Below are positions 4,175 to 42,408 of a DNA stretch of 43,646 nucleotides, in pieces. Below the pieces are notes generated by a model, which saw nothing but the letters and a program-made list of their open reading frames with translations, was not told the origin of the DNA and did not search any database. This stretch comes from an uncultured Candidatus Saccharibacteria bacterium (GTDB lineage Bacteria > Patescibacteriota > Minisyncoccia > Phycocordibacterales > UBA9973), in contig CAYHBT010000002.1 of NCBI GenBank assembly GCA_964354935.1, forward strand, positions 19,864 through 63,509. The letters run 5' to 3'. The position numbers and the translations under genes are program-made. Numbering within the stretch: position 1 is the first letter of the stretch; each line of letters begins with the position of its first letter.

Positions 4175-5906
4175 ACAATGTCAAAACTGTAAAACAGACT
4201 TCATTATAGAGCCGGACGATTTTGGATTTTATGAAAAGATGAAGGTGCCAGTGCCTACATTTTGTCCGGAATGCCGACGGCAGAGACGAAACGCTTGGCG
4301 GAATACTTTTACTTTGTATTCCCGCAAATGCGATTCCTGCCAAAAATCCGTCATTTCACTTTACGCTCCTACCGCGCCAAAGGACGGGCAAGCTTCCGGT
4401 ATCACTATTTACTGCAACAAATGCTGGTGGAGCGATAAATGGGACGCGAAAAGTTTCGGAGCGGAGTATGATTTTTCTAAACCTTTTTTCACGCAGTTTC
4501 GCGAACTTATCGGCAAAGTGCCACACATTTCTATTGTGAACGACGATGGCATCGCTAGCCTAAATTGCGAATACACGCACGATACTTGGTTTTCAAAAAA
4601 TTGCTATATGGTGTTTTCTTCTTGGCGCATAGAAAATGTTTCGTACAGTTTTTTCATTCTTGCCGGCAAAGATATGATGGACTGTATGAATATCAGGTCC
4701 AAAAATGAATTTTTGTACGAATGTGTGCGTTGCGCTACCTCATATAAATTAACACATTCTCAACAATCAAAAGATTGCATAGAATCATCGTTTCTTGCTG
4801 ACTGCCTAAACTGCTCAAATTGTTTTATGTGTTGCGGGTTGCGCGGAAAAAAATACCATTTTAAAAATAAACAATATTCTAAAGAAGAATACGAAAAAAT
4901 CTTAAAAGATCATCGGTTGGATACTTTTTCTGGAGTTGAAAACACAATAAAAGAATTCGATTCTTTTATTTCTACACAAATTCAACGATATGCTCACAAT
5001 TTTCATAATGATTTGAATGTTATCGGTGAAGAAATTTCTAACTCGAAAAATATAAAAAATTGCTTTGGAATAAAAAAATCAGAAAACTGTCGATATTGCG
5101 ACTTCGGCTCGAACGACAAAGAATGCTATGACCTAGTGATGACAGGGGAATCTTCAGAGTGCTATGAGGTGGCTACTGCTGACCAATCCCAACTGAATCT
5201 TTTTGCTGTTTTTTCGGTGAAAAGCCAAGATGTGCGTTACACTCAGCATTGTCATAATTGCAGGCATTGTTTTGGTTGCGTCGGTCTGCGCGATGCAAGT
5301 TACTGTATTTTTAATAAACAATACACAAAAGAAGAATATGAAACGCTGGTGCCGAAAATAATTGAGCAGATGAACAAAATGCCTTTCGTTGATCGCATAG
5401 GAAATTCCTATGCGTATGGAGAATTTTATCCGATAGAACTTTCGCCGTTTGGCTACAATGAAACTCTTGCCATGGAAGATGTCGCGTTCTCAAAAGAAGA
5501 AGCGCAGAAGAGGGGATTTGGCTGGCAGGACAATATTCAACGCACGACGGGCAAGGAAACGCTCAAGCCTGAAAATATTCCGGAGTCCATAGACGAAATA
5601 GGGGATTCAATCTTAGATGAAGTGCTCGCCTGCATCGATTGCAAAAGAAATTACAAAATTGTTCCAAACGAACTTATTTTTTATCGGAAAATGAAAATCC
5701 CTATTCCGCGCCGATGTTTTTATTGCCGTCATGCGAACAGGCTGAAAAAGAGAAATCCGTTCAAACTTTGGCATAGGCAATGTATGTGTGAAAAAAAGCA
5801 CGCACATCACGAAGAACAATGCGACATAGAATTTGAAACAACTTACGCGCCGGAGCGGCCAGAAATTATTTATTGTGAGAAGTGTTATCAGCAGGAAGTG
5901 TACTAA
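4158..5906 (+). CDS. Cys-rich protein of unknown function with zinc-ribbon modules at both termini (paralog 1)
   Basis: 582-aa ORF. N- and C-terminal CxxC..FY.KM..P.P..C..CR modules and two internal halves, each ending C.NC..CF.C.GLR...NKQY[ST]KEEYE. Clear paralog of 34992-36728. Start overlaps the scpB end. Confidence 0.8.
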   Translation: MQAQTKQCQNCKTDFIIEPDDFGFYEKMKVPVPTFCPECRRQRRNAWRNTFTLYSRKCDSCQKSVISLYAPTAPKDGQASGITIYCNKCWWSDKWDAKSFGAEYDFSKPFFTQFRELIGKVPHISIVNDDGIASLNCEYTHDTWFSKNCYMVFSSWRIENVSYSFFILAGKDMMDCMNIRSKNEFLYECVRCATSYKLTHSQQSKDCIESSFLADCLNCSNCFMCCGLRGKKYHFKNKQYSKEEYEKILKDHRLDTFSGVENTIKEFDSFISTQIQRYAHNFHNDLNVIGEEISNSKNIKNCFGIKKSENCRYCDFGSNDKECYDLVMTGESSECYEVATADQSQLNLFAVFSVKSQDVRYTQHCHNCRHCFGCVGLRDASYCIFNKQYTKEEYETLVPKIIEQMNKMPFVDRIGNSYAYGEFYPIELSPFGYNETLAMEDVAFSKEEAQKRGFGWQDNIQRTTGKETLKPENIPESIDEIGDSILDEVLACIDCKRNYKIVPNELIFYRKMKIPIPRRCFYCRHANRLKKRNPFKLWHRQCMCEKKHAHHEEQCDIEFETTYAPERPEIIYCEKCYQQEVY

Positions 5907-6745: not shown

Positions 6746-6789
6746 CTAAAAACCATAACATATTAGGCTGTTTTAATCAAAAAAATATA

Positions 6790-6798
6790 TGCTACAAT
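6790..6798 (+). promoter_or_regulatory. Extended -10-like box 6 nt before the mraY ATG
   Basis: TGCTACAAT-gtctat-ATG; no SD. Confidence 0.45.
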
Positions 6799-17704: not shown

Positions 17705-17756
17705 CCTCACCCGCCTTCGGCACCCTCTCCTTGACAAGGAGAGGGTTAGGGAGAGG
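17705..17756. repeat. Nested-hairpin element, family B copy 1 (at the mrdA 3-prime end)
   Basis: CCTCACCCGCCTTCGGCACCCTCTCCTTGACAAGGAGAGGGTTAGGGAGAGG. Inner stem CCCTCTCCTT/AAGGAGAGGG, side hairpin GCC-TTCG-GGC. Confidence 0.8.
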
Positions 17757-22064: not shown

Positions 22065-23198
22065 TTATTTTCCGGGAGGTGTGAGAATTATTTTTTCTGG
22101 CTCGAAAATTACTTGTCGCTGATTCTCTTTGCCTTTTTCTACAATGCCGATATCCGCGAGTTCGTATCCTTCATTTTTGCCTATTTTCAATATTTTAGCA
22201 ACTTCTTCTCTTGGCGCAAAAATATAGTAACCCACACCCCAATTAAAAGTCTTAAGACAATCTATTGTCGGCACTTTGAGTATTTTGTGAAAATATTCCA
22301 TCAGTGGCGGAATTTTTAGCCACGAATGAATTCTGTAAGTGAAAGGTCTTTTATCAAAAGCGATTTTACCGACTCCATCTCCAGTACCGGGTAGGAGTGT
22401 GTGAATTTTCACTTTAGATGCAAGTAGGGCTTCTACAAGCGCAACATATGAACGAGTCGGAATCAACGCTTCCTCGCCGATAGTATTTCCATTTGGAATT
22501 TTCGTGAGAAATTGTTCGGGAAGTTCTAGGGTTTTTTTGATAACTAGACTTATGCCGTTGGCGTGCAGTCCCGAAGAAGCTACGCCGATGATGTGGTCGC
22601 CCACAGACAAATCCTGCCCGGTAATTAAATTTTCTTTGGGCGCGACGATGCCGATCACCGAGCCGCTCAAGGCTGCAATTTCAGTTACTGGGGGTTTGGG
22701 ATTAATCAAATATGTCACGCTTGCCGATTCTCCTGCCGGCAAAGCCATGCCGACTTCTTCGCAAATTTTAAAAAAGCCGTTCGCAAAATCCTGCGCTCTT
22801 TTTTTGTCGGCATACCAAGCGCTACCGCTCGCTTCCAGCTGGTCTGTAAAAACTACCGGCATCGCGCCTTGAGCAATGACATCGTTTACCACAATCAATG
22901 CAGTATCGATAGCAATAGAGTCATAATAAGACTTACCTGTTTTTTGATACATCCATTCGGCGATCCAGTTTTTATTTCCCAAATCTTCTTGCGTCTGGCA
23001 CCAGATTATAGATTCCTTACCGAGATATTCAAAAACCGCGCCGTGCGCGTGTGTCGCATCTTCATTTATATAGACTCCCCTTTTGTTCGGAAATTTAAGA
23101 GTTTTCTTCCCCGCTTCTATCATTGCCATCTTAAATGGTTCCATCACCGTATAGTCCACACCAGCTTTTGCATATTCGCTTTGTGGTTTAGTTGCCAT
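22065..23198 (-). CDS. purM: AIR synthetase (divergent PurM-like)
   Basis: 377 aa. YAKAGVDY N-terminus and IDTALIVVNDVIAQGAMPVVFTD resemble the PurM dimer/ATP motifs. Position between purE and purC fits. Confidence 0.7.
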   Translation of the reverse strand: MATKPQSEYAKAGVDYTVMEPFKMAMIEAGKKTLKFPNKRGVYINEDATHAHGAVFEYLGKESIIWCQTQEDLGNKNWIAEWMYQKTGKSYYDSIAIDTALIVVNDVIAQGAMPVVFTDQLEASGSAWYADKKRAQDFANGFFKICEEVGMALPAGESASVTYLINPKPPVTEIAALSGSVIGIVAPKENLITGQDLSVGDHIIGVASSGLHANGISLVIKKTLELPEQFLTKIPNGNTIGEEALIPTRSYVALVEALLASKVKIHTLLPGTGDGVGKIAFDKRPFTYRIHSWLKIPPLMEYFHKILKVPTIDCLKTFNWGVGYYIFAPREEVAKILKIGKNEGYELADIGIVEKGKENQRQVIFEPEKIILTPPGK

Positions 23199-23760: not shown

Positions 23761-24465
23761 TTATTTCTTGTTATTACTTATATCACTTGCGGTAAAACTA
23801 CCCATCTCTGGATTTATCTTTGTTCTTGAGAAATAAAGACGCCTATTATTATTGTTGTAATAAATTTCATCTGTGGTAAAAGAGGATTTTTTGGGACCAT
23901 TTACAATGACTGGTTCAAATCCAAGATTTTGCTTGATTTGAGACGAAAGGAAATTTATTGAATCTAGGTATTGTTGTCGATCATGTTCTGAATCTTCAGG
24001 ATAATTTCCTCCAACGATAACAGCGTCAATCGTCCCTGGAATGCATCTCTCTTTAATTTCAGACAAACTTTTTTCTAAGCCAGATTTAAAATCCTCTTTC
24101 TTTGGATTAAACAAAAAGAAACTTGGATCCTGATGGCTCAAGAATGAGATAGGATTTCCATTTTCCTTTTCTATTCCAGCGACGACTAATCCCGTGCATC
24201 TAAAAAAATCTAAAGAAAATTTATTTAAACTGTCTATTGTAGATATTACACATTGAGCACCTTCGGTCTGTAAAAATTGCTTATCTGCGTTTCCTCTAAC
24301 ATCGTTGTATTTTACATTATGTCCTTCAGGGGGATAATCCTCATCAATAAATAGTCCTATTTCGTCTTGTGTTCCTAGGCACACATAAATGGGCTTTACT
24401 CCCTCAATTAAATGTTTTGAAAGTTTCTTTGCCTCTGGTTGATTTATATTCAATGTTTCATTCAT
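23761..24465 (-). CDS. Uncharacterised protein embedded in the pur operon (orf234)
   Basis: 234-aa ORF with host-like composition. The pattern C-TGLVVAG..(20)..H then IDAVIVGGN then N..L....LGF remotely resembles CheD-type Cys/His deamidases. No firm family assignment. Confidence 0.6.
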   Translation of the reverse strand: MNETLNINQPEAKKLSKHLIEGVKPIYVCLGTQDEIGLFIDEDYPPEGHNVKYNDVRGNADKQFLQTEGAQCVISTIDSLNKFSLDFFRCTGLVVAGIEKENGNPISFLSHQDPSFFLFNPKKEDFKSGLEKSLSEIKERCIPGTIDAVIVGGNYPEDSEHDRQQYLDSINFLSSQIKQNLGFEPVIVNGPKKSSFTTDEIYYNNNNRRLYFSRTKINPEMGSFTASDISNNKK

Positions 24466-24504
24466 AAATATATAATATCATAAGTTATTTTATTTTTAAA
24501 AATT

Positions 24505-24559
24505 AAAAAAGCCAGTACTTGTGATTTGTATCACCTCCTTTCGGTTGTACTGGCTTTTT
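24505..24559 (-). terminator. Intrinsic terminator with an unusually large structured loop
   Basis: GCCAGTAC (24511-24518) pairs with GTACTGGC (24547-24554), flanked by A6 and T5 tracts. The loop contains a GTGAT-ACAA-ATCAC mini-hairpin and ATCACCTCCTTTC. Confidence 0.7.
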
Positions 24560-24564
24560 GGGGT

Positions 24565-24768
24565 TTAGTCCATGTGGGGACCAACCAATTCCTCCTCCTT
24601 GTCCACCACAAAACCACCCACCGTGATGGTGGTGGTTTCGGCCCGCTGCTGGGGAGGGGGCGGTGACGATATATCGCTCGTCACCATACTCTCGGCGCCC
24701 AAAGCGGCGAGAGCATGCATCGCCGCGTCCACTTTAGACGCGGCGATGATGACTTCAAGTTTTTTCAT
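24565..24768 (-). CDS. GC-rich 67-aa ORF with a PII(GlnB)-like N-terminal half; possibly a gene remnant or not coding
   Basis: MKKLEVIIAASKVDAAMHALAALGAESMVTSDI aligns by eye with PII MKKIxAII.P.KLDxVxxAL...G...MTVTEV. Strong G at codon position 1 and high GC3. Only 67 aa, no SD, and full of perfect hairpins. Confidence 0.4.
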   Translation of the reverse strand: MKKLEVIIAASKVDAAMHALAALGAESMVTSDISSPPPPQQRAETTTITVGGFVVDKEEELVGPHMD

Positions 24769-24859
24769 CGTATTAGTTTGGTTGAAGGGCTCCCTCGTTT
24801 GTTGATTTTAAAGAGCCCTGATTCAACAAGAGACTAGCATAAGTTCACCTTTCTTTCAA

Positions 24860-26398
24860 TTAGTGTTTAAAATGTCTAAATCCTGTCGTGACCATCGCTA
24901 TTTTGTATTTATTCGCCATATCTATCGAAGCTTGATCGTTTTTTGAGCCTCCGGGTTGGATAACTGCTTTGATGCCGACTTTGCCTGCGAGTTCCACACA
25001 ATCAGGAAAAGGGAAAAACGCTTCAGAAGACATCACTGCGCCTTTTAGGGAGAATTTAAACCTTTTCGCTTTATCTATAGCTTGTTTCAAAGCATCTATG
25101 CGTGAAGTCTGCCCGCAACCCATAGAAATAAGCGCGCCGTTTTTTACCAGCGCTATCGCATTTGATTTTAAATGTTTGGTTGCTACCGCGGCAATGAGCA
25201 TATCTGCTATTTCTTTTTTTATCGGTTTTCTTTTTGTAACTGTCGAGAGGTCGGACTCCTTTTCTACTTGCGTGTCGCGGTCTTGCGAAAGAGTTCCCGT
25301 AAAACAAGTTCGCGTTTGTTTTTGTGGCAATGTCGGAGTCTGCCATTTTAAGACCCGAACATTTTTCTTTTCTTTGAAAATTTCGAGAGCCTCCTTGCTA
25401 AAATCCGGCGCGATGATGACTTCCACAAAAAGCTCTTGTTTTTTTATGAGCTTGGCGATATCTTCGCCTACTTCCCTATTTGCCGCAAGTATTCCGCCAA
25501 AGGCTGAAACTGGGTCAGCTTTGTATGCCTCTTTGTAAGCCTTGAATATGTCTTTTTGCACGGATAGACCGCAAGCATTCATATGCTTGATAATAGCGAA
25601 AGCAGGCTCTTTAAAATCGTAAACGACAGAAATAGCCGCTTCTGTGTCTATGAAATTGTTATAAGAAAGCTCTTTGCCGTGAAGTTGGATAAAACTTTTT
25701 TCAAGATTGCCTATAAATTCAGCCTTTTGGTGTGGATTTTCGCCGTAACGAAGATTTATTTTCGTGTCGTTTTGCCCATAGGTCAGACCTATGGAATCCA
25801 CAGGTCTGACCTGTGGGCAGGTAAAGTAGTTTCGAATAGCCGTATCGTATTCGCTCGTTACTTCAAACGCATCACCAGCCATTTTTTTGCGTTCTTCTAG
25901 GGTTGTCTCTATCCCCCTTTTTAATATTGAAGTTAATTCTTTGTATTGATTTTTTGAAGGAATCACGACAACATCGTTAAAATTTTTCGCCGCCGCGCGG
26001 ATAAGAGCAATACCGCCGATGTCTATTTTTTCAATAATCTCATCGGCGGTTCCGCCTTTCGCCAAGGTTTCCTCAAACGGATAAAGGTCGACGATGACCA
26101 AATCAATATCTTCTATTTTGTGTTTTGCTTTTTCTTTTTGGTCGTCGCTATTATCTCGGCGATTTAAAATTCCGCCAAAAATTTGCGGTTGTAATGTCTT
26201 TACTCTTCCGCCAAAAACTGCGGGGAAATTTGTGACAGTTTCTACTTCAGTCACAGCTACACCCAATTTCCGTATAAATTCCGCCGTCCCGCCAGTAGAA
26301 ATAATTTTCACCTTATGTTTAGCAAGGAGTCTGACGATCTCTTCGAGACCGTCTTTATTAAAAACCGAAATTAAAGCCGAGCTAATTTTTTTTGTCAT
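24860..26398 (-). CDS. purH: Bifunctional AICAR transformylase / IMP cyclohydrolase
   Basis: 512 aa with an MGS-like N-domain (ALISVFNKDGL...STGGTA) and an AICARFT C-domain. Carries a tandem palindrome insert at 25776-25816. Confidence 0.9.
   Translation of the reverse strand: MTKKISSALISVFNKDGLEEIVRLLAKHKVKIISTGGTAEFIRKLGVAVTEVETVTNFPAVFGGRVKTLQPQIFGGILNRRDNSDDQKEKAKHKIEDIDLVIVDLYPFEETLAKGGTADEIIEKIDIGGIALIRAAAKNFNDVVVIPSKNQYKELTSILKRGIETTLEERKKMAGDAFEVTSEYDTAIRNYFTCPQVRPVDSIGLTYGQNDTKINLRYGENPHQKAEFIGNLEKSFIQLHGKELSYNNFIDTEAAISVVYDFKEPAFAIIKHMNACGLSVQKDIFKAYKEAYKADPVSAFGGILAANREVGEDIAKLIKKQELFVEVIIAPDFSKEALEIFKEKKNVRVLKWQTPTLPQKQTRTCFTGTLSQDRDTQVEKESDLSTVTKRKPIKKEIADMLIAAVATKHLKSNAIALVKNGALISMGCGQTSRIDALKQAIDKAKRFKFSLKGAVMSSEAFFPFPDCVELAGKVGIKAVIQPGGSKNDQASIDMANKYKIAMVTTGFRHFKH
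25776..25816. repeat. Tandem pair of related 19-bp palindromes in frame in purH
   Basis: CCATAGGTCAGACCTATGG-AAT-CCACAGGTCTGACCTGTGG. Encodes PQVRPVDSIGLTYG. Confidence 0.8.
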
Positions 26399-27960: not shown

Positions 27961-29488
<1,528 letters not shown>

Positions 29489-30891: not shown

Positions 30892-32778
30892 TTAATTTTT
30901 AGATAATTCAAGAGCTTTTTTGCCTATGTCTTTTCTGTATTGCATACCTTCAAAAGATATTTTTGAAATTGCTTCGTAGGCTTTATCGAGGGCTTCTTGC
31001 AGGCTTTTGCCCGTCGCGCTGACTCCCAGCACCCGCCCGCCGTTGGTGACTAGTTTTCCGTCTTTTTTGGTTGTGCCGGCGTGAAAGATAATTATATCTT
31101 TTTCTTTTTTCACTTCTTCAATCCCTGTGATAATTTTACCCTTCTCATATTCCCCCGGGTACCCGCCAGAAGCTACGGCGATGTTGCAGGCGGATGTATT
31201 TTCTTTCCATTTTATTTCTAAATCTTTTATTTTTCCATCAATACAAGCATCAAACATGTCCAAAATATCCGTCTCTAAAATTCTCATATATGTCTGTGTC
31301 TCCGGATCGCCGAAGCGCGCGTTGAATTCAAAAACCTTCGGGCCTTCGGCTGTGAGCATTATCCCCGGGTACAAAATTCCAACAAACGGTCTGCCTTCTT
31401 CTCTCATACCCGCCAATGTTGGCGCGATAATTTCTTTTTCAATTTGCGACATCAGCGCTTCGTTCATAAAAGGTAGCGACGCAATGACTCCCATTCCGCC
31501 TGTATTAGGTCCAGCATCGCCATCGAATATGCGTTTATGATCTTGCGAGCTTGGAAACATTTTAAAATCTTTTCCGTCGGAAATTGCGTGAATGGAGATT
31601 TCGGTGCCGGAAAGGTATTCCTCGATGACTACTTCGTTGCCGGAACTGCCAAAAATTTTATCCACCAAGATTTTTTTAAGTGCCTCGAGCGCTTCTTCTT
31701 TTGTTTGCGCTACTGCCACGCCTTTGCCGAGCGCGAGTCCGCTTGCTTTGATGACTACAGGCACCGAACCTTTTTCAACATATATTTTCGCTTTTTCAAA
31801 ATCGGAAAAAACCTCGTATTTAGCCGTTGGGATTTTGTGTCGTTTCATAAAATCTTTGGCGTAAGCTTTAGACCATTCGAGCTCGCTTGCCCCTTTGGTC
31901 GGACCCCAAACTCTTAATTTTTCTTTGTGAAATTCGTCCACTATGCCAAGCGCAAGAGGGTCGTCAGAGAGAACGAGAGTCAGGTCAATTTTTTCTTTTT
32001 TGGCAAATTCTAAAAGCTTGGCGGTTTCAGTTTCTTTTATATCTAAATTAGTTCCCAGCTCTGCTGTGCCGGCGTTGCCTCGCGCAAAAAATAATTCTCC
32101 CGCTCGAGGCGACTGCGCTATTTTCCAGCCGATTGCGTGTTCCCGTCCTCCTCCCGCGCCAATTATTAAAATTTTTTTATACCTCACCCCGCCTTCGGCA
32201 CCCCTCTCCTTGTTAAGGAGAGGGGTTGGGGGTGAGGTCAATTTTTCTAAAACTTCTACATATAATTCGTTTTCTTTTTTCTTTAGTCTGGCATACAGAG
32301 ACTCCACAGTATCGCCATCTTCCACTTTTTCAAAAGTTCTACCCAAGACTGGTCCAAAATCGAAATTCAAAGTCAAAAAATGAATTGAAGAACCGGCAAA
32401 AGTGGATTTTTGGTCTAGGAAATTTTTGATTGCCTTATCGCCATACATTCCTTTGTTCCATAGAGCTTTTGTATTATCAGGATTTAATATCTCTCCATTT
32501 ATTGTATCCGGAATCAAACCCGGGTGTAAATTAAAAATTTTGTTTTCATATTTTATTATCATCATTTCGGGAATTATCTTTTTCCAACCAGCTAGACATA
32601 TGTAGTCTGGCGACACTTTTTCCAATATCGGCATTGGTTCTTCCCTATCCGAAATGACTACAGAAATTTCCGCATTTATTTTCCCTGCATCAATTTCATC
32701 TCTAATTGCCTTGAGGTTTGTTTGAGCGCCTCCTTCGTGAACCAAAATCGCTAACTTTTTTTTATTCTTTTGGGACAT
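30892..32778 (-). CDS. purD: Fused GAR transformylase (PurN-like) / GAR synthetase (PurD)
   Basis: N-terminal ~190 aa has the formyltransferase NLHPGLIP and FDFGPVL motifs. The C-terminal part starts KILIIGAGGGREHAIGW (PurD ATP-grasp). The two halves are joined by repeat 32181-32238. Confidence 0.8.
   Translation of the reverse strand: MSQKNKKKLAILVHEGGAQTNLKAIRDEIDAGKINAEISVVISDREEPMPILEKVSPDYICLAGWKKIIPEMMIIKYENKIFNLHPGLIPDTINGEILNPDNTKALWNKGMYGDKAIKNFLDQKSTFAGSSIHFLTLNFDFGPVLGRTFEKVEDGDTVESLYARLKKKENELYVEVLEKLTSPPTPLLNKERGAEGGVRYKKILIIGAGGGREHAIGWKIAQSPRAGELFFARGNAGTAELGTNLDIKETETAKLLEFAKKEKIDLTLVLSDDPLALGIVDEFHKEKLRVWGPTKGASELEWSKAYAKDFMKRHKIPTAKYEVFSDFEKAKIYVEKGSVPVVIKASGLALGKGVAVAQTKEEALEALKKILVDKIFGSSGNEVVIEEYLSGTEISIHAISDGKDFKMFPSSQDHKRIFDGDAGPNTGGMGVIASLPFMNEALMSQIEKEIIAPTLAGMREEGRPFVGILYPGIMLTAEGPKVFEFNARFGDPETQTYMRILETDILDMFDACIDGKIKDLEIKWKENTSACNIAVASGGYPGEYEKGKIITGIEEVKKEKDIIIFHAGTTKKDGKLVTNGGRVLGVSATGKSLQEALDKAYEAISKISFEGMQYRKDIGKKALELSKN
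32181..32238. repeat. Nested-hairpin element, family B copy 2 (in frame, purN-purD junction)
   Basis: ACCTCACCCCGCCTTCGGCACCCCTCTCCTTGTTAAGGAGAGGGGTTGGGGGTGAGGT, with the same architecture and orientation as 17705-17756. Encodes TSPPTPLLNKERGAEGGVRY. Confidence 0.8.
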
Positions 32779-36752: not shown

Positions 36753-39674
36753 TTAACTCATACTTTTTGAAAATTTGTGATAGATATCGTGCAATTTTTT
36801 GACAGTACTTTCTATTATTTTTTTACCACCATCTTCAACTATTACTTTTTCATCTTTCATTACTTTTCCTAACTTTGCATAGGAAACTCCTATGCATATT
36901 TTCTCAAAGACATTTATATTTTCCGGCGCGACAGAAACAAGAATTCTACCTTGGCTTTCGGAAAAGATCTTTGTCTCTACAGCCAGCGCCTTAGGCGCTG
37001 GCTGGCTTATATCTATTTTACAGCCGAGCATTCCGCCTAGAGATGCTTTCGCGAGAGCGATACCTAGACCGCCGGAAGTTACAGAAAGCGAAGAAGATAG
37101 TAATTCTTTTTGAATTAATTTTTCGAGTGCAAGATAAGTTTTCAGATTTTTTTCTAAATTTACTTTTGGAACACCATGTTCATCATTCGTTTCTCCCAGC
37201 AAATAAATTATATCATCTGCATTTTTAAATTCCGGCGAAACGGCTTTATTCAAATCAGGCATTACGCTGATTGCCGAGATAAGTAAAGTTGGCGGGATTG
37301 AAATTTCAACCGGATTGCCTTTTTCGTCATAGCCCTTAAAATCGTTGAACATACTGTCTTTTCCGGAGATAAACGGGGTTCCGTAGCCTACTGCATAGTC
37401 GTAGCAGGCTTTTACGGCTTCTACGAGTTGATATAAGCGTTTTGGGTCATTTGAGGAACACCAGCAGAAATTGTCTAAAATCGCTAAATGGGAAAGCGTA
37501 CCGCCCGCGGCGATTATATTTCTAATAGCGGTATCTAGCGCACAAGCCGCCATATGATATGTGCTAATGTCTCCGTAAGAAGGATAAAGCGCAGAAGATA
37601 AGACAACTGCTTTTTTTGAATTTAAAACCGGACGGAAAATTTGCGCATCGGTGTTTATGCGTCCAGCGCCGGAGAGAGGTTTCAAAACAGAAGACGCCTG
37701 CACTTCGTGATCGTATTGTTCGGAGACAAAAGCAAATCCAGAGATGTTTTTATTGGCGAGGAGGGTTTCTAAAGATTTTGTATACACTTTGCCTCTACCC
37801 AACCTCCTCCTACTGTAGGGGGAGGAGAAAGGAGGGGGTAAAATTTCCTCCGTTCTCAATTGTCTTTTCGGCAATCCATTGTGCAAAAATTCCATTTCCA
37901 TATCCATAATTTTTTTGCCACCGTATTCCAAAATAACTTTTCCGGAATTTGTGAATTCCCCGATTACCGTCGCTTCCACTCCGCGACTTTCCATAAGTTT
38001 TTGGAAAGTTTTCCATTTATTTTTTGGAACTGCCAAAGTCATTCGTTCCTGCGATTCGGAAATCCAAATTTCCCACGGCGCGAGACCGGGATATTTGAGC
38101 GGGACTTTGTCTAAAAAAACTTTCACTCCCCCACATTCTTTTGCCATTTCTGCGACCGACGAAGACAAACCACCAGCGCCATCGTCTGTGATGCTGTTGT
38201 ATAAATCTAATTCACGCGCTTCTTTAATTATTGCATCGCTTAATTTTTTCTGTGTTATCGGGTCTCCTATTTGGACTGCTGTGGCTGGAGAAGAGCTATC
38301 AAGTGTCACTGATGAAAAAGTCGCGCCGTGTATTCCATCTAGTCCGACTCTTCCTCCCACCATTACTACATAATCTCCCGCCCTAGCTTTCTTCTCGTGC
38401 ATTAATTTTCCCTTAACTTTGCGAGGTATTAATCCGACGGTTCCAGCAAAGACCAATGGCTTGCCACGATATCGTTCGTCGTATTTTATAAATCCGGAAA
38501 GTGTCGGAATTCCTGAACAGTTTCCACCAACATTGATGCCTTTAATGACTCCGTCCATAATTCTTTTCGAAGAGAGCATCTTCTCCGTTAAATTTTTATT
38601 TCTAAATAATTCTCTTTTATCATTTGGATAGCTAAGACAAAATCCGTATGCGTTCGCCACCGGTTTTGCGCCCAATCCAAAACCAATCGTGTCTCGATTC
38701 ACACCAACGATTCCAGTGATTGCTCCGCCAAAAGGGTCGAGCGCCGAAGGGCTGTTGTGCGTTTCGACTTTGTGTGTAATCAAATAATCTTCATCAAAAA
38801 TTATTCCACCGGCGTTGTCGGAAAAAACAGAAACACAGAAATCGCCGCCCCCGCCACGGCGGGCAAGTTTTTGTTTTCTTATTATATTTGTTGCCTCTTT
38901 TATATATGTTTTATACAAACCGTCCTTTATAACACCTGCCTGTTTCCCTGCGTCAGCAGGAGGCAGTTCAATCGGATTAGCAAAAATAGTGTGCTTGCAA
39001 TGTTCAGACCAAGTTTGCGCCAAAGACTCAAGTTCAATATCGGTGGGGTTTCTTTTCAACTTGGCAAAATACGCTTTTATGGCAAGCATAGAAGCCAAAT
39101 CAAGAGCGAGCGGGCCTCTCCTTTTGCCATCTTCACCCAGTATGCCTTCTGTGCCTATTTTAGTAAGTTCTTCATCTGAAACTTCAAGCGAAATATTTAT
39201 CACAGGAATTTTTTTCTTTAAAATTACTTTTGGAATGATATTTATAAATTCGAATTTTCCGTTTTTTGTTTTAACTATATTCGCTCTTTCAATAAGAGGA
39301 TTGTATAAGGTCAGAGCAAGCTCTTGCGTTTCTTTTAGTCCACCCGAAACAAAAAAAATCTTTGAAGTATATACTTCAAAATGGTCGTTCTTTTTAAGAT
39401 GTAGTAAATCTGTCGCTATCTCTTTGACCGTGTGTCCGACATTATCGGTGACTCCGGGCAAGAATCCTATTTCTATGGCATGAGAAAACCCGCCGACTGG
39501 GCGGGCAAGCTTCCCCAATTCCGGGTACTCGTTGATGTAATAATTTTCCAAAATGGGATTAGTGAGCGCTTCTGCTAATTTTACGAGCTCTTTTTCCGAG
39601 AATTTAGAATCAATGAGATAGGAATCTGCCTTTGCGCTATCATTTTTCGGTATTACAAATATCCGTGAAATCAT
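36753..39674 (-). CDS. purL: FGAM synthase II with extra N-terminal PurS-like domain
   Basis: 973 aa with WSEHCKHTIF and duplicated PurM-like halves. The first ~160 aa resemble the N-domain of large PurL / PurS. Carries at least four GC-rich hairpin inserts. Confidence 0.85.
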   Translation of the reverse strand: MISRIFVIPKNDSAKADSYLIDSKFSEKELVKLAEALTNPILENYYINEYPELGKLARPVGGFSHAIEIGFLPGVTDNVGHTVKEIATDLLHLKKNDHFEVYTSKIFFVSGGLKETQELALTLYNPLIERANIVKTKNGKFEFINIIPKVILKKKIPVINISLEVSDEELTKIGTEGILGEDGKRRGPLALDLASMLAIKAYFAKLKRNPTDIELESLAQTWSEHCKHTIFANPIELPPADAGKQAGVIKDGLYKTYIKEATNIIRKQKLARRGGGGDFCVSVFSDNAGGIIFDEDYLITHKVETHNSPSALDPFGGAITGIVGVNRDTIGFGLGAKPVANAYGFCLSYPNDKRELFRNKNLTEKMLSSKRIMDGVIKGINVGGNCSGIPTLSGFIKYDERYRGKPLVFAGTVGLIPRKVKGKLMHEKKARAGDYVVMVGGRVGLDGIHGATFSSVTLDSSSPATAVQIGDPITQKKLSDAIIKEARELDLYNSITDDGAGGLSSSVAEMAKECGGVKVFLDKVPLKYPGLAPWEIWISESQERMTLAVPKNKWKTFQKLMESRGVEATVIGEFTNSGKVILEYGGKKIMDMEMEFLHNGLPKRQLRTEEILPPPFSSPYSRRRLGRGKVYTKSLETLLANKNISGFAFVSEQYDHEVQASSVLKPLSGAGRINTDAQIFRPVLNSKKAVVLSSALYPSYGDISTYHMAACALDTAIRNIIAAGGTLSHLAILDNFCWCSSNDPKRLYQLVEAVKACYDYAVGYGTPFISGKDSMFNDFKGYDEKGNPVEISIPPTLLISAISVMPDLNKAVSPEFKNADDIIYLLGETNDEHGVPKVNLEKNLKTYLALEKLIQKELLSSSLSVTSGGLGIALAKASLGGMLGCKIDISQPAPKALAVETKIFSESQGRILVSVAPENINVFEKICIGVSYAKLGKVMKDEKVIVEDGGKKIIESTVKKLHDIYHKFSKSMS
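37796..37840. repeat. GC-rich nested hairpin in frame in purL (family C)
   Basis: TACCCAACCTCCTCCTACTGTAGGGGGAGGAGAAAGGAGGGGGTA. Stem CTCCTCCTAC/GTAGG(GG)GAGGAG. Encodes LPPPFSSPYSRRRLG. Confidence 0.65.
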
Positions 39675-40689: not shown

Positions 40690-41574
40690 ATGAAAACCAT
40701 TGTGTGGCAAAGGAAATCCAGGTATGCCCTGGTCACCTGCGTCAACAATGGCCGTGGTGTCGTTGTTGAGAAAGAAATTTCTCCCGAGAATGTAAATTCC
40801 GGGAACGCAGTTTGGGTAAATCAGACGAGTGTGTATTTCCGCCAAAAACTCCGAGAGCTCGGGGTCTTGCTGGCGGAGCCGTACACTTTTTCCGAACAGG
40901 AGGGCAAGGCGATACAGTGCTCTCCTTATGTCGGTTTGGATTTGGATGAAGTTTTTGATAAGGGTAAAGCAACGGCTGAAATCCTTAGAGAACTTCTCTC
41001 CACGATGGGTGGAGTCCTAAGTCAAAAGGAACGAGAGGTGGGTATTGATGCCCGTCTGTCCAACTTCTGTCTTGGGCCAGATTCTCGAGTGTACTATGTA
41101 GACACTTTCCCTCCGTTGGTGAAGTACGAGGGAGAGTTTATAGTACACTTTCCGAATCCGACGGAGCCGGAGATGGTCGAGCAAGAACTCAAACGCAAGT
41201 TTGATTCGCTCGGTATTCTCCGCCGGCTTCGTTTCAGCATCTTGGCGCAAGATGCTGGACTCAATGAGCAGCACATTCTTGCTGCTGTCGGCGAAGTTCT
41301 AGGAAAAAATTTCGGACAACAGGTCCGCAATTTTTTTCAGACACTTCCTGACAACAAGGAGGTTGGCGTCGCTCTTGCGGAGTTGACGCTCAGCGATCCC
41401 GACGCCATTCGGGAACTTGCCCTGCGGTTTATGCCGCCCAAGGGCGAGGTACGAGACAAATACTTCAGCGAAGTATTTGATCTAAGCAGTCATTTTTGTC
41501 CTCTAAAAATGACTGCTGGACAACGGATAGTTCGTTTGCGCGAACTGTTCGTGAGAAGAGGAATCATCGATTAG
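40690..41574 (+). CDS. GC-rich hypothetical protein, possibly an atypical kinase-like fold
   Basis: 294-aa ORF, visibly more GC-rich than its neighbours. GIDARLSNFCLGPDSRVYYVDTFPP resembles a D-x4-N catalytic loop followed by a metal-binding D. Pattern-level evidence only. Confidence 0.55.
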   Translation: MKTIVWQRKSRYALVTCVNNGRGVVVEKEISPENVNSGNAVWVNQTSVYFRQKLRELGVLLAEPYTFSEQEGKAIQCSPYVGLDLDEVFDKGKATAEILRELLSTMGGVLSQKEREVGIDARLSNFCLGPDSRVYYVDTFPPLVKYEGEFIVHFPNPTEPEMVEQELKRKFDSLGILRRLRFSILAQDAGLNEQHILAAVGEVLGKNFGQQVRNFFQTLPDNKEVGVALAELTLSDPDAIRELALRFMPPKGEVRDKYFSEVFDLSSHFCPLKMTAGQRIVRLRELFVRRGIID

Positions 41575-41607
41575 GAGGTACGGACTTTATGTCACGGCCT
41601 CCTTTTC

Positions 41608-42408
41608 TTATTTTTGGAGCTCAATAAATAACGGATAGTGATCTGAAGCCATATCAGCAACTTCATTTTTAAATACTTCTGCTTTTTTAAAATACTTAAT
41701 AATATTTTTTGTTAAGAAAGCATAATCAATTCTGATATTGGCCGAATGATTTGGATCTTTATTTGAAGGAGTCGGTGTGGTGGAGGCAAAAGGATGTTTT
41801 AAATAATTCATAGTATCAACTAAGCCTTCTGATTCAATTTTCTTAATCACATCAAAACGCAATTTTTCAGTGCCATATTTAATAATATTATTTTTTTTAA
41901 ATATTTGGAGAAGCTCTTTTTGATCATAGGGATCATTTGGCGATAAAGAATTAAAGTCCCCCATAATTATCGCTTCGGAAAATTTTGCGACATTTTGTAA
42001 TAATTCTCTTGTCTCCAGCAGTCTATCATCTTCAGATATAGGAGAAAGATGGACAAAAAAAATGCCAAAGTTTTTAAATAGACCATTTTCTATGGTTGCT
42101 TCAAGAATGACATGCCGAATTCCAGTTTTGATTGCTTTGATTGTGAAAGGAATTTTTGATAATACAGCAATATTATATTTTGAATTCGCTATTGCAATAT
42201 CAAAAAATTTATACCCTAAATCATTTGCGACCCCTTTTAATTTATCTTGTGAACCGACGGCTTCAAGAATTCCGCATATATCGGGATTAATTTTTTTTAT
42301 TACTGTCGAAATTTTATCCAATCGTTCCTCTCCCCCGTTTAAAATATTATAACTAGCTATGCGTAGTAAGTTTTCTTCTTTCTGTTCTGAGATCATACGA
42401 GAAATCAT
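41608..42408 (-). CDS. Endonuclease/exonuclease/phosphatase (EEP) family protein
   Basis: IASYNILNGG, ILEA, GDFNS and SDHYPL motifs in canonical order. Confidence 0.8.
   Translation of the reverse strand: MISRMISEQKEENLLRIASYNILNGGEERLDKISTVIKKINPDICGILEAVGSQDKLKGVANDLGYKFFDIAIANSKYNIAVLSKIPFTIKAIKTGIRHVILEATIENGLFKNFGIFFVHLSPISEDDRLLETRELLQNVAKFSEAIIMGDFNSLSPNDPYDQKELLQIFKKNNIIKYGTEKLRFDVIKKIESEGLVDTMNYLKHPFASTTPTPSNKDPNHSANIRIDYAFLTKNIIKYFKKAEVFKNEVADMASDHYPLFIELQK

What the first reader, a model, noticed from the sequence alone, without database searches (positions are those of the whole stretch)
24505..24840. GC-rich island in the pur operon: PII-like mini-ORF or structured RNA, and a terminator whose loop complements the 16S 3-prime tail
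The gap between purH and orf234 is far more GC-rich than its surroundings and both strands are open. On the minus strand there is a 67-codon ORF. Its first 33 residues align by eye with the beta1-alpha1-beta2 of PII proteins. Its codons show strong G at position 1 and high GC3, which is coding-like but of foreign composition. It is too short for a full PII and lacks an SD. The same stretch is packed with perfect hairpins: 24721-24745 (9-bp stem), 24662-24685 (8-bp stem), and a CCACCACC/GGTGGGTGG region with alternative pairings. Its 5-prime side has a 12-bp bulged stem (24781-24827). It ends in a strong terminator (24505-24559). In the transcript, the terminator loop reads GAAAGGAGGTGAT, a 13-nt perfect complement of the conserved 16S rRNA 3-prime tail AUCACCUCCUUUC, with no start codon at a usable distance. 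Nearly all genes in this window lack SD sequences. Possible readings are: a horizontally acquired PII-like remnant; a cis-regulatory leader (aptamer-terminator layout upstream of orf234-purE-purM-purC-purB); or a nest of the same hairpin elements seen inside genes.
Basis: partly seen in the sequence, partly recalled or inferred. Interest (0 to 1): 0.65.

Follow-up and report, generated by a model that had tools for sequence, protein, structure and literature searches.

The report
Highly expressed hairpin-packed mini-gene after purH
The GC-rich island is a self-contained, abundantly transcribed mini-gene of a Nomurabacteria (CPR) genome, with its own promoter, a 67-codon orphan reading frame folded into a chain of hairpins, and a lineage-typical terminator; it is not a purine riboswitch or a true PII gene, and the 13-base match to the 16S tail is not conserved.

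Summary
Window 24526-24802 is the most GC-rich stretch of the window (63% against 40%). It folds far better than shuffles (z -8.3), carries a 67-codon ORF on the minus strand, and ends in a 13-bp terminator whose loop reads GAAAGGAGGTGAT.

The organism is a Candidatus Nomurabacteria/Paceibacterota bacterium. None of its 34 genes has an SD, and most look leaderless.

The island has its own promoter and terminator. In two metatranscriptomes it is one of only two loci in 43.6 kb that gave assembled RNA. The other is a 294-aa gene that is also GC-rich and hairpin-dense.

The closest relative (L003, purH 84% identical) has a similar promoter, the same terminator subtype with compensatory stem changes, and a different 70-codon orphan ORF, also GC-rich and hairpin-packed. 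Both ORFs have coding-type base periodicity.

Best reading: a fast-evolving small protein gene with a very stable, structured mRNA (about 0.55). Main rival: a non-coding sRNA (about 0.25).

PII similarity is reproducible but below threshold and covers only the first beta-alpha-beta. No Rfam match and no conservation in 45 related loci argue against a riboswitch. The anti-SD complement is 13 nt only here: L003 has GAAAGGGGTGAT and three other relatives have GAAAGGAGGAAAA. This is an ordinary kind of feature with some curious details.

The parts
24831..24859 (-). Promoter of the island: -35 TTGAAA (24859-24854, directly after the purH stop), a 17-nt spacer, and an extended -10 TGCTAGTCT (24839-24831). 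The predicted transcription start is near 24826-24823.
   Evidence: The motif TATGCTAnnnT recurs 6-12 nt before the ATG of purH, purE, guaB and other genes. L003 has TTGACA-17-TAGGGT with a TG extension at the aligned place, and about 68% identity over the promoter block. The start site is inferred, not mapped.
24779..24827 (-). 5' terminal bulged stem-loop (core 24819-24810 paired with 24795-24786), which would sit at the 5' end of the transcript.
   Evidence: MFE and centroid structures. A stabilising role is an inference.
24565..24768 (-). 67-codon ORF: MKKLEVIIAASKVDAAMHALAALGAESMVTSDISSPPPPQQRAETTTITVGGFVVDKEEELVGPHMD. The AUG lies in a mostly unpaired A-rich stretch.
   Evidence: ORF list. 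GC by codon position is 0.62/0.43/0.68, with G in 30 of 68 first positions and 7 of 68 second positions. The mean unpaired probability of 24780-24755 is 0.72. No homologue was found in 5.8 billion or 1.84 billion proteins.
24662..24748 (-). Three consecutive GC-rich hairpins inside the ORF: 24748-24718 (12-13 bp), 24717-24685 (about 13 bp) and 24685-24662 (8 bp).
24591..24659 (-). Composite helix: CCCCUCC (24659-24653) pairs with GGAGGAGG (24598-24591) and encloses the hairpin 24640-24609. The C-run encodes PPPP and the G-run encodes KEEE.
   Evidence: MFE helices.
24505..24559 (-). Bidirectional intrinsic terminator: a 13-bp outer stem, an inner CC-GAAA-GG mini-hairpin, a GUGAU-ACAA-AUCAC mini-hairpin, and a U tract. 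The loop carries GAAAGGAGGUGAU.
   Evidence: Fold z -6.5. Relatives occur in L003, L002, L007 and L014. The RNA contig of X8 ends at 24511, the base of the stem.
24511..24750 (.). Stretch covered by assembled metatranscriptome contigs: X7 covers 24550-24750 at depth 18.4, and X8 covers 24511-24701 at depth 9.
   Evidence: The contigs carry no strand information.
24465..24482 (-). Downstream context: the leaderless-type promoter TATGATATTAT (24482-24472) and the ATG of orf234 (24465). This starts a separate unit, orf234-purE-purM-purC-purB.

Best explanation
The island is a stand-alone mini-gene of a Candidatus Nomurabacteria (CPR/Patescibacteria) genome. The steps below are marked as shown or inferred.

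1. Transcription (inferred from motifs and their conservation). It starts at the island's own extended -10 promoter, immediately after the purH stop, near 24826-24823. It runs on the minus strand through a 5' stem-loop.

2. Translation (inferred from base periodicity and amino-acid make-up). The transcript encodes a 67-residue orphan alpha/beta protein. Translation starts at an AUG in an unpaired A-rich stretch without an SD, as for every other gene here. The N-terminal beta-alpha-beta resembles the first half of PII/ACT/HMA-type ferredoxin-like modules.

3. Structure (shown by sequence and folding). The coding region is GC-enriched and folds into a chain of near-perfect hairpins.

4. Termination (shown by sequence and folding). 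The unit ends in a strong bidirectional terminator of a type shared by related genomes. No other terminator lies between purH and the island, so this one also ends read-through from guaA-purH. It separates that unit from orf234-purEMCB, which has its own promoter.

5. Abundance (shown). The RNA is abundant in situ.

6. Cause of abundance (inferred). The dense structure makes the RNA long-lived, and this is why it and the other hairpin-dense gene of the window dominate the metatranscriptome signal.

7. Function (not known). The protein evolves fast and is lineage-specific, which argues against a core role in purine synthesis.
For: Organism and synteny: purH is 72-84% identical to Nomurabacteria/Paceibacterota MAGs. 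The order guaB(-) guaA purH [gap] purE purM purC purB is conserved, with a gap of 21 bp to 1.7 kb.

Own promoter: TTGAAA-17-TGCTAGTCT matches the window's recurrent TATGCTAnnnT motif and aligns with TTGACA-17-TGTTAGGGT in L003.

RNA: in X7 and X8, the whole 43.6-kb window yields assembled RNA contigs at only two loci. These are the island (24511-24750, depth 18.4 and 9) and gene 40690..41574.

Structure: these same two loci are the two most structured in a sliding-window scan of both strands. Windows 41401-41550 and 24601-24750 score z -15.4 and -10.5. The second locus is a 294-aa ORF with coding periodicity and a weak Pfam match. Hairpin-dense coding RNA therefore exists in this genome.

Coding signal:
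- GC at codon positions 1/2/3 is 0.62/0.43/0.68 in the window ORF.
- It is 0.68/0.35/0.61 in the L003 70-aa ORF and 0.59/0.39/0.63 in the second L003 mini-ORF.
- The overlapping plus-strand ORF has the low-GC position as its first codon position, which is not coding-like.
- The ORF frame has protein-like composition: 1 Arg, no Cys or Trp, and many Ala, Val, Glu and Asp. The other frames are rich in Arg, Trp, Pro and Ser.

Counterpart in L003: its ORF starts 12 nt after the -10 element, like ordinary leaderless genes. NCBI annotates it as a hypothetical protein.

Terminator family: its other members follow ordinary small or medium ORFs in L002, L007 and L014.

Stability of the sequence: identical island sequence is found in DNA runs of two studies.
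Against: - No homologue of the 67-aa ORF exists in 5.8 billion clustered proteins or in 1.84 billion representatives.
- The L003 ORF is also an orphan.
- The two ORFs are only 30% identical over 47 residues, E=1.1 for the single comparison.
- GC-rich DNA leaves frames open on both strands by chance.
- The PPPP tract is encoded by a C-run that pairs with a GGAGGAGG run, so part of the peptide may be a by-product of RNA structure.
- The RNA contigs stop at 24750 and 24701. They do not cover the AUG at 24768 or the 5' hairpin, so the abundant species could lack the start codon.
- The AlphaFold single-sequence model is of low confidence, pLDDT 65.
- No strand information, mapped transcript ends or peptide evidence is available.
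Confidence: 0.55

Rival explanations
1. The island is a non-coding, highly structured small RNA of about 240-320 nt. It is either transcribed from its own promoter or is a stable 3' fragment of the guaA-purH transcript. The 67-codon frame is incidental.
For: - Fold z is -8.3 in the window and -6.0 and -6.9 in the two L003 units.
- A GC-rich island in an AT-rich genome is a classic signature of structural RNA (established knowledge).
- The RNA is abundant while the flanking genes give no contig.
- The contigs cover 24511-24750 and omit the AUG.
- No terminator lies between purH and the island.
- Both ORFs are orphans.
- The PPPP tract coincides with a structural C-run.
Against: - The ORF frame shows three-base periodicity, with position 2 lowest in GC, in three independent units. 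RNA structure alone does not predict this, and selecting an open frame would bias the other way.
- The ORF frame alone has protein-like composition.
- The other abundant, hairpin-dense RNA of the window is a clear 294-aa coding gene.
- There is no Rfam match.
- No sequence or helix-by-helix conservation is seen between the window and L003 bodies.
Confidence: 0.25
2. The island is the decaying remnant of a horizontally acquired PII (GlnB-like) gene from a GC-rich donor.
For: - Pfam P-II matches residues 1-32 at E=0.0079.
- All top PDB matches are PII N-termini.
- Composition is foreign-looking, with GC3 of 0.68.
- By eye, FVVD lines up with the YVVDF of PII strand beta3. This is my own reading, not a tool result.
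Against: - All scores are below family thresholds.
- Only 67 of about 112 residues are present. No T-loop motif or second beta-alpha-beta is found in any frame.
- The unit has a native-type promoter and terminator.
- L003, a lineage separated long enough for the body to become unalignable, keeps a GC-rich unit at the same place. The GC content is therefore maintained rather than decaying.
- The RNA is abundant, which is unusual for a dead remnant.
Confidence: 0.07
3. The island is a cis-regulatory leader (riboswitch or attenuator) that controls read-through into orf234-purE-purM-purC-purB.
For: The layout is structured RNA, then a terminator, then purine genes.
Against: - No Rfam family matches, even at E<=10.
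- The island body is absent from 45 related purH loci, and the gap is as short as 21-50 bp in many.
- In L003 the same terminator is followed by another mini-gene, not by purE.
- orf234 and purE each have their own leaderless-type promoter.
- The RNA accumulates as a terminated species without downstream signal.
Confidence: 0.03
4. The island is a mobile insertion (MITE-like), flanked by an 11-bp target duplication TA(T/G)CATAAGTT at 24476-24486 and 24835-24845.
For: A direct repeat, 10 of 11 bases identical, flanks the island exactly. The purH-purE gap is a hot spot of variable content.
Against: - The repeat is the -10 promoter motif TATG(C/A)TA of two successive promoters.
- The island has no terminal inverted repeats.
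- The island body is single-copy in the DNA runs even at 80% likeness. Only the terminator has another copy.
- No copy is found in the loci or in the metagenome pattern scan.
Confidence: 0.05

Closest known systems
Lineage-specific small ORFs (small proteins) with their own promoter and intrinsic terminator
   Same: The unit is compact: promoter, an ORF under 100 codons, and a terminator. It is an orphan, sits in a variable intergenic hot spot and is strongly transcribed.
   Different: Its GC content is far above the genome's (GC3 0.68 against 0.23-0.52). The coding region is a chain of near-perfect hairpins. There is a roughly 58-nt structured leader in a genome whose genes are otherwise leaderless.
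PII signal-transduction proteins (GlnB/GlnK, PF00543)
   Same: The first 32-34 residues follow the beta1-alpha1-beta2 pattern of PII (MKKxExII..K.D....AL...G...M..S).
   Different: The protein is half the length. It lacks a T-loop and a second beta-alpha-beta, and its scores are below threshold. L003's counterpart gives weak HMA-like matches rather than PII matches.
Dual-function or 3'-UTR-derived bacterial sRNAs (for example SgrS, RNAIII, CpxQ-type)
   Same: It is an abundant, structured, terminator-ended RNA next to or downstream of a metabolic gene, and it contains a short ORF.
   Different: No target, Hfq-type motif or conserved seed is known. The body is not conserved between the two closest lineages.
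Rho-independent terminators with structured or branched loops
   Same: It has a GC-containing stem with an A-tract/U-tract extension on both sides, which makes it bidirectional, followed by a U run. It lies at the end of a transcription unit.
   Different: The loop is 27 nt long with two mini-hairpins. A purine-rich core, CGAAAGGAGG, recurs in four of the five family members found and is complementary to the canonical 16S 3' end.
Rickettsia palindromic elements (hairpin repeats within genes)
   Same: Hairpin-forming sequences lie inside coding regions without breaking the frame.
   Different: Here each hairpin has a unique sequence apart from two small pairs. They are not a repeated mobile family, and the island body is single-copy.

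Membership tests
PII (PF00543 / GlnB-GlnK) | Profile match above the curated threshold | tested here: not met
   Pfam gives 17 bits against a 25-bit cut-off, E=0.0079. NCBIfam gives 13.1 bits against 202. PDB PII chains match at E 0.8-1.4.
PII (PF00543 / GlnB-GlnK) | About 112 residues with a double beta-alpha-beta and a T-loop | tested here: not met
   The ORF has 67 residues. The match covers profile positions 1-32 of 102 only. No continuation appears in any frame.
Riboswitch / cis-regulatory leader (Rfam) | Match to a curated covariance model | tested here: not met
   There are no matches at gathering score in the whole window. Only chance-level hits at E>0.2 occur in 24400-24950.
Riboswitch / cis-regulatory leader (Rfam) | Aptamer conserved upstream of the regulated genes in related genomes | tested here: not met
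   The island body has no blastn or tblastn counterpart in 45 purH loci. The gap is 21-68 bp in ten of them.
Riboswitch / cis-regulatory leader (Rfam) | Regulated gene has no promoter of its own downstream of the terminator | tested here: not met
   TATGATATTAT lies 7 nt before the orf234 ATG, the same layout as other genes. This is motif-based only.
Intrinsic (Rho-independent) terminator | Stable stem-loop followed by a U tract at the end of a transcription unit | tested here: met
   The stem is 13 bp, energy is -22.5 kcal/mol, z is -6.5, and the tract is UUUUUU. The X8 RNA contig ends at the stem base, 24511. The exact 3' ends are not mapped.
Shine-Dalgarno site | Complement of the 16S 3' tail placed 5-10 nt before a start codon | tested here: not met
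   The complement is present (13 nt). The next ATG, of orf234, is about 65 nt away, and no start codon lies nearer.
Shine-Dalgarno site | Conservation of the complementarity in orthologues | tested here: inconclusive
   The 13-mer is unique to the window. L003 has GAAAGGGGTGAT. The 9-mer GAAAGGAGG is kept in 4 of 5 family members.
Shine-Dalgarno site | 16S rRNA of this organism ends in ...AUCACCUCCUUUC | not testable with these tools
Protein-coding small ORF | Codon-position periodicity and protein-like composition in the ORF frame | tested here: met
   GC by codon position is 0.62/0.43/0.68, with G1 30/68 and G2 7/68. The two L003 mini-ORFs show the same pattern.
Protein-coding small ORF | Conserved homologues, or purifying selection at the protein level | tested here: not met
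   No homologues were found. The ORF is 30% identical to the L003 ORF, E=1.1. The nearest purH relative is 84% identical, so dN/dS is not possible.
Protein-coding small ORF | Peptide or ribosome evidence | not testable with these tools
   No proteomic or ribosome-profiling data are accessible.
MITE / mobile insertion | Multiple copies, terminal inverted repeats and a target-site duplication | tested here: not met
   The island body is single-copy. There are no terminal inverted repeats. The flanking 11-mer is a promoter motif.
Type III toxin-antitoxin RNA | Tandem direct repeats before a terminator and a toxin gene | tested here: not met
   The island has no direct-repeat family. orf234 has no PADLOC, Pfam or NCBIfam match.

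The most novel reading that the evidence does not exclude
The island RNA, and the terminator family with the conserved loop core CGAAAGGAGG, could be ribosome-binding RNAs. In a bacterium that translates leaderless, SD-less mRNAs but presumably keeps the anti-SD tail, an abundant, nuclease-resistant RNA that displays the complement of the 16S 3' end could dock on 30S subunits. It could then act as a sponge, as a hibernation or standby factor, or to couple termination with ribosome recycling. The 67-codon frame would be secondary.
Probability: 0.05. Interest if true: 0.8.

Novelty: new member of a known kind. Interest (0 to 1): 0.38.

Why it matters
CPR/Patescibacteria genomes are full of unannotated space and orphan genes, and almost nothing is known about their RNA biology.

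This locus shows three things:
- One of the most abundant transcripts of a 43.6-kb Nomurabacteria segment is an unannotated mini-gene.
- RNA abundance in situ goes together with extreme GC-rich hairpin density, both here and in a 294-aa gene.
- The genome is leaderless and SD-free, yet it keeps a terminator family whose loop mirrors the 16S tail.

If the link between structure and abundance is general, it points to RNA stability as a major lever of gene expression in these reduced genomes. It also gives a cheap way to find their highly expressed small genes.

For the question asked, the result removes a tempting but wrong annotation as a purine riboswitch or PII gene.

Tried and rejected
- Rfam was run at gathering score on the whole window, and at E<=10 on the island and E<=1 on L003. 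Only chance hits appeared.
- ARAGORN found no tRNA or tmRNA.
- The word-indexed search of 5.8 billion proteins and the full HMMER scan of 1.84 billion representatives were run with the 67-aa ORF. They returned only the ORF itself, plus two low-complexity hits to long repetitive proteins.
- The same search with L003's 70-aa ORF returned only itself.
- PHROGs, NCBIfam and PADLOC gave nothing significant.
- blastn and tblastn of the island against 45 related loci matched only the terminator.
- A metagenome pattern scan for the terminator subtype found only the L003 population plus three chance hits. The same pattern in viral contigs gave nothing.
- A search for closer relatives through purH found none above 84% identity. 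Covariation and dN/dS tests were therefore impossible.
- Four further purH neighbourhoods were examined (L055-L058). They hold ordinary-GC small ORFs or no gap content, and related terminators, but no further GC-rich island.
- The AlphaFold single-sequence model had pLDDT 65 and was not used.
- A two-sequence profile against the PDB again put PII proteins on top, but at E 0.19-0.4.
- No RNA runs could be listed for L003.
- The idea that SD-like motifs are avoided genome-wide, and so stand out here, was rejected. GGAGG occurs 59 times against 45 expected.
- The target-site-duplication idea was rejected, because the repeat is a promoter motif.

Full report
**What is there**

Window 24505-24840 lies between purH (24860..26398, minus) and an orphan orf234 (23761..24465, minus). 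A 150-nt window reaches 63% GC at 24526-24802. This is the maximum of the whole 43.6-kb window, whose mean is 39.8%.

- A 67-codon ORF on the minus strand (24565..24768), and open frames on the plus strand.
- Perfect or near-perfect hairpins at 24718-24748 (12 bp), 24685-24717, 24662-24685 and 24611-24638, and a bulged 5' stem within 24779-24827.
- A terminator with a 13-bp stem and a U tract at 24505-24559.
- The loop sequence GAAAGGAGGTGAT.

As minus-strand RNA the island folds at -146.9 kcal/mol against -101.8 +/- 5.5 for dinucleotide shuffles, z -8.3.

**Organism and context**

purH is 72-84% identical to purH of Candidatus Nomurabacteria/Paceibacterota (CPR) MAGs. In about 30 of these loci the order guaB(-) guaA purH [gap] purE purM purC purB is kept. 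The purH-purE gap varies from 21 bp to 1.7 kb and holds unrelated content. This includes purK in four loci, small orphan ORFs in many, and orf234 only here.

None of 34 genes in the window has an SD. Many carry the extended -10 motif TATGCTAnnnT 6-12 nt before the ATG, which is the layout of leaderless mRNAs. The missing SD of the 67-codon ORF therefore says nothing.

**A transcription unit of its own**

Directly after the purH stop lies TTGAAA, then 17 nt, then TGCTAGTCT (24859-24831). This matches the window's promoter motif.

The closest relative, L003 (purH 84% identical), has TTGACA-17-TGTTAGGGT at the aligned place. About 68% of the promoter block is identical, whereas the island bodies align no better than chance.

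The terminator of L003 is the same subtype: outer stem, CCGAAAGG mini-hairpin, GUGAU-NNAA-AUCAY mini-hairpin, and the tail UUUUUUAAUUU. The outer stem has changed from GCCAGUAC/GUACUGGC to GCUGGUAC/GUACCAGC, a double compensatory change.

The promoter and terminator are therefore inherited and constrained, while the body between them has diverged beyond alignment.

**Expression**

Two freshwater metatranscriptomes (X7, X8) come from the same samples as DNA runs that hold the window. In each, the whole window gives assembled RNA contigs at only two loci:
- The island, 24550-24750 at depth 18.4 and 24511-24701 at depth 9.
- Gene 40690..41574, with contigs 40798-41575 at depth 11 and 40798-41498 at depth 7.2.

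purH and orf234 give none.

A sliding-window fold scan of both strands ranks the same two loci first. Windows 41401-41550 and 24601-24750 score z -15.4 and -10.5. The 3' half of gene 40690..41574 is also a chain of near-perfect hairpins, z -9.75.

That gene is a 294-aa ORF with coding periodicity (0.60/0.36/0.52) and a weak DUF6206 match. Hairpin-dense, GC-enriched coding RNA therefore exists in this genome and is what accumulates in situ.

Caveats:
- Contigs carry no strand information.
- Contig ends are not transcript ends.
- The island contigs do not reach the AUG at 24768.

**Coding or not**

For coding:
- GC at codon positions 1/2/3 is 0.62/0.43/0.68 in the window ORF, with G in 30 of 68 first positions and 7 of 68 second positions.
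- It is 0.68/0.35/0.61 in L003's 70-codon ORF at the same place, and 0.59/0.39/0.63 in a second L003 mini-ORF.
- Position 2 is lowest in all three, by about 2.5-4 standard errors each. Picking an open frame would bias position 2 upward rather than downward.
- Only the ORF frame has protein-like composition.
- L003's ORF starts 12 nt after its -10 element, like ordinary genes.
- The terminator family follows ordinary ORFs in L002, L007 and L014.

Against coding:
- Both ORFs are orphans in 5.8 billion and 1.84 billion protein sets.
- They share 30% identity over 47 residues, E=1.1.
- GC-rich DNA is open in several frames by chance.
- PPPP is encoded by a C-run that pairs with GGAGGAGG.
- AlphaFold is unconvincing.

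I put coding with a structured, stable mRNA at about 0.55 and a purely non-coding sRNA at about 0.25.

**PII**

The by-eye alignment is reproducible:
- Pfam P-II matches residues 1-32 at E=0.0079.
- NCBIfam HisG_C gives E=0.0065.
- The five best PDB matches are all PII N-termini.
- A two-sequence profile with L003's ORF again puts PII on top, at E 0.19-0.4.

Every score is below threshold. The protein is half the length of PII, and the T-loop and second beta-alpha-beta are absent in all frames. L003's ORF gives weak HMA-domain matches instead. The fair statement is that the N-terminus looks like a ferredoxin-like beta-alpha-beta. Membership in PII is not met.

Recent horizontal transfer is unlikely. 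The unit has native signals, and two lineages that diverged long ago both keep the high GC. This points to selection on GC and structure rather than to foreign origin.

**Riboswitch**

- There is no Rfam match.
- The island body is not conserved in 45 related loci.
- Many relatives have almost no gap.
- L003's copy is followed by another mini-gene rather than purE.
- orf234 and purE have their own promoters.

This reading is close to refuted.

**The terminator and the 16S tail**

The terminator belongs to a small family in this lineage, found in the window, L003/L051, L002, L007 and L014. L056, L011 and L055 carry looser relatives. The family shares stem sequences and the tail UUUUUUAAUUU.

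A second, shorter copy exists in the same metagenomes and breaks the DNA assemblies at this point.

Four of the five members keep CGAAAGGAGG in the loop. This is partly folded as a C-GAAA-G capped mini-hairpin followed by unpaired purines.

The 13-nt complement exists only in the window. There, GGUGAU also forms the inner hairpin. L003 has GAAAGGGGUGAU, which interrupts the complementarity. No start codon lies at a usable distance. GGAGG is not avoided in the window, at 59 observed against 45 expected.

I read the 13-mer as a coincidence built on a conserved 9-10-nt purine-rich loop core. Why that core is conserved is open. A ribosome-docking role is the most novel reading, at about 5%.

**Verdict**

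The island is a real, expressed, lineage-specific mini-gene, or less likely an sRNA, with a conventional promoter and terminator. It is remarkable mainly for its hairpin density, its GC content and its abundance. It is a new member of a known kind, of moderate interest.

Noticed in passing
whole window; e.g. 26418-26408, 23739-23729, 27963-27973, 6788-6798, 2794-2784: None of 34 genes has a Shine-Dalgarno sequence. Many have the extended -10 motif TATGCTAnnnT 6-12 nt before the ATG, so this Nomurabacteria genome appears to use leaderless mRNAs widely.
   Followed up: partly
window 40690-41620 (+): This is a 294-aa gene with a weak DUF6206 match. It is GC-rich, and its 3' half is a chain of near-perfect hairpins (z -9.75). 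It is the only other locus of the window with assembled RNA in X7 and X8. Its terminator stem is AGGAGG/CCUCCU.
   Followed up: partly
window, e.g. 25776-25816 (in purH), 36980-37004, 5394-5414 and 36876-36896, 17722-17746 and 32200-32226: Perfect hairpins (stem of 9 or more) are about five-fold enriched, 17 observed against 3.2 expected, and most lie inside genes. Two pairs are near-identical palindromes: GCATAGGAAAyTCCTATGC and ACCC(C)TCTCCTTG..CAAGGAGAGGG(G)T.
   Followed up: partly
purH-purE gaps of L002, L003 (6026-6178), L011, L017, L055: A recurrent family of ORFs of about 45-56 codons shares a motif like (A)HEL(A/T)DG(E/Q). Most end in GG or GGG (FGGG, SLGG) and one ends in QAG. The L055 ORF shares the motif but ends in EEKP. 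Function is unknown. The window itself lacks it.
   Followed up: no
window 22065-23198 (purM), compared with L002, L009, L023 and all other loci: The window's purM is 85-86% identical to that of L002, L009 and L023. It is only 22-30% identical to the purM at the same position in the other loci, including the closest relative L003. Two non-orthologous purM types appear to have replaced each other in situ.
   Followed up: no
L003 5724 and 5767, compared with L051: Two assemblies of the same population differ at only 2 of 2733 positions. Both differences lie in the roughly 70-nt stretch between the stop of the 70-aa ORF and its terminator.
   Followed up: no
window 23761-24465 (-), orf234: This orphan 234-aa protein has no Pfam, NCBIfam, PHROG or PADLOC match and no counterpart in 45 related loci. 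It sits where other genomes have purK or nothing, and it has its own leaderless-type promoter.
   Followed up: partly
L003 6020-6245: The second mini-unit of L003 has a 50-aa ORF ending in GGG. It is also GC-rich (0.59/0.39/0.63) and hairpin-dense (z -6.9), and it contains a PPPP-coding C-run like the window ORF.
   Followed up: partly
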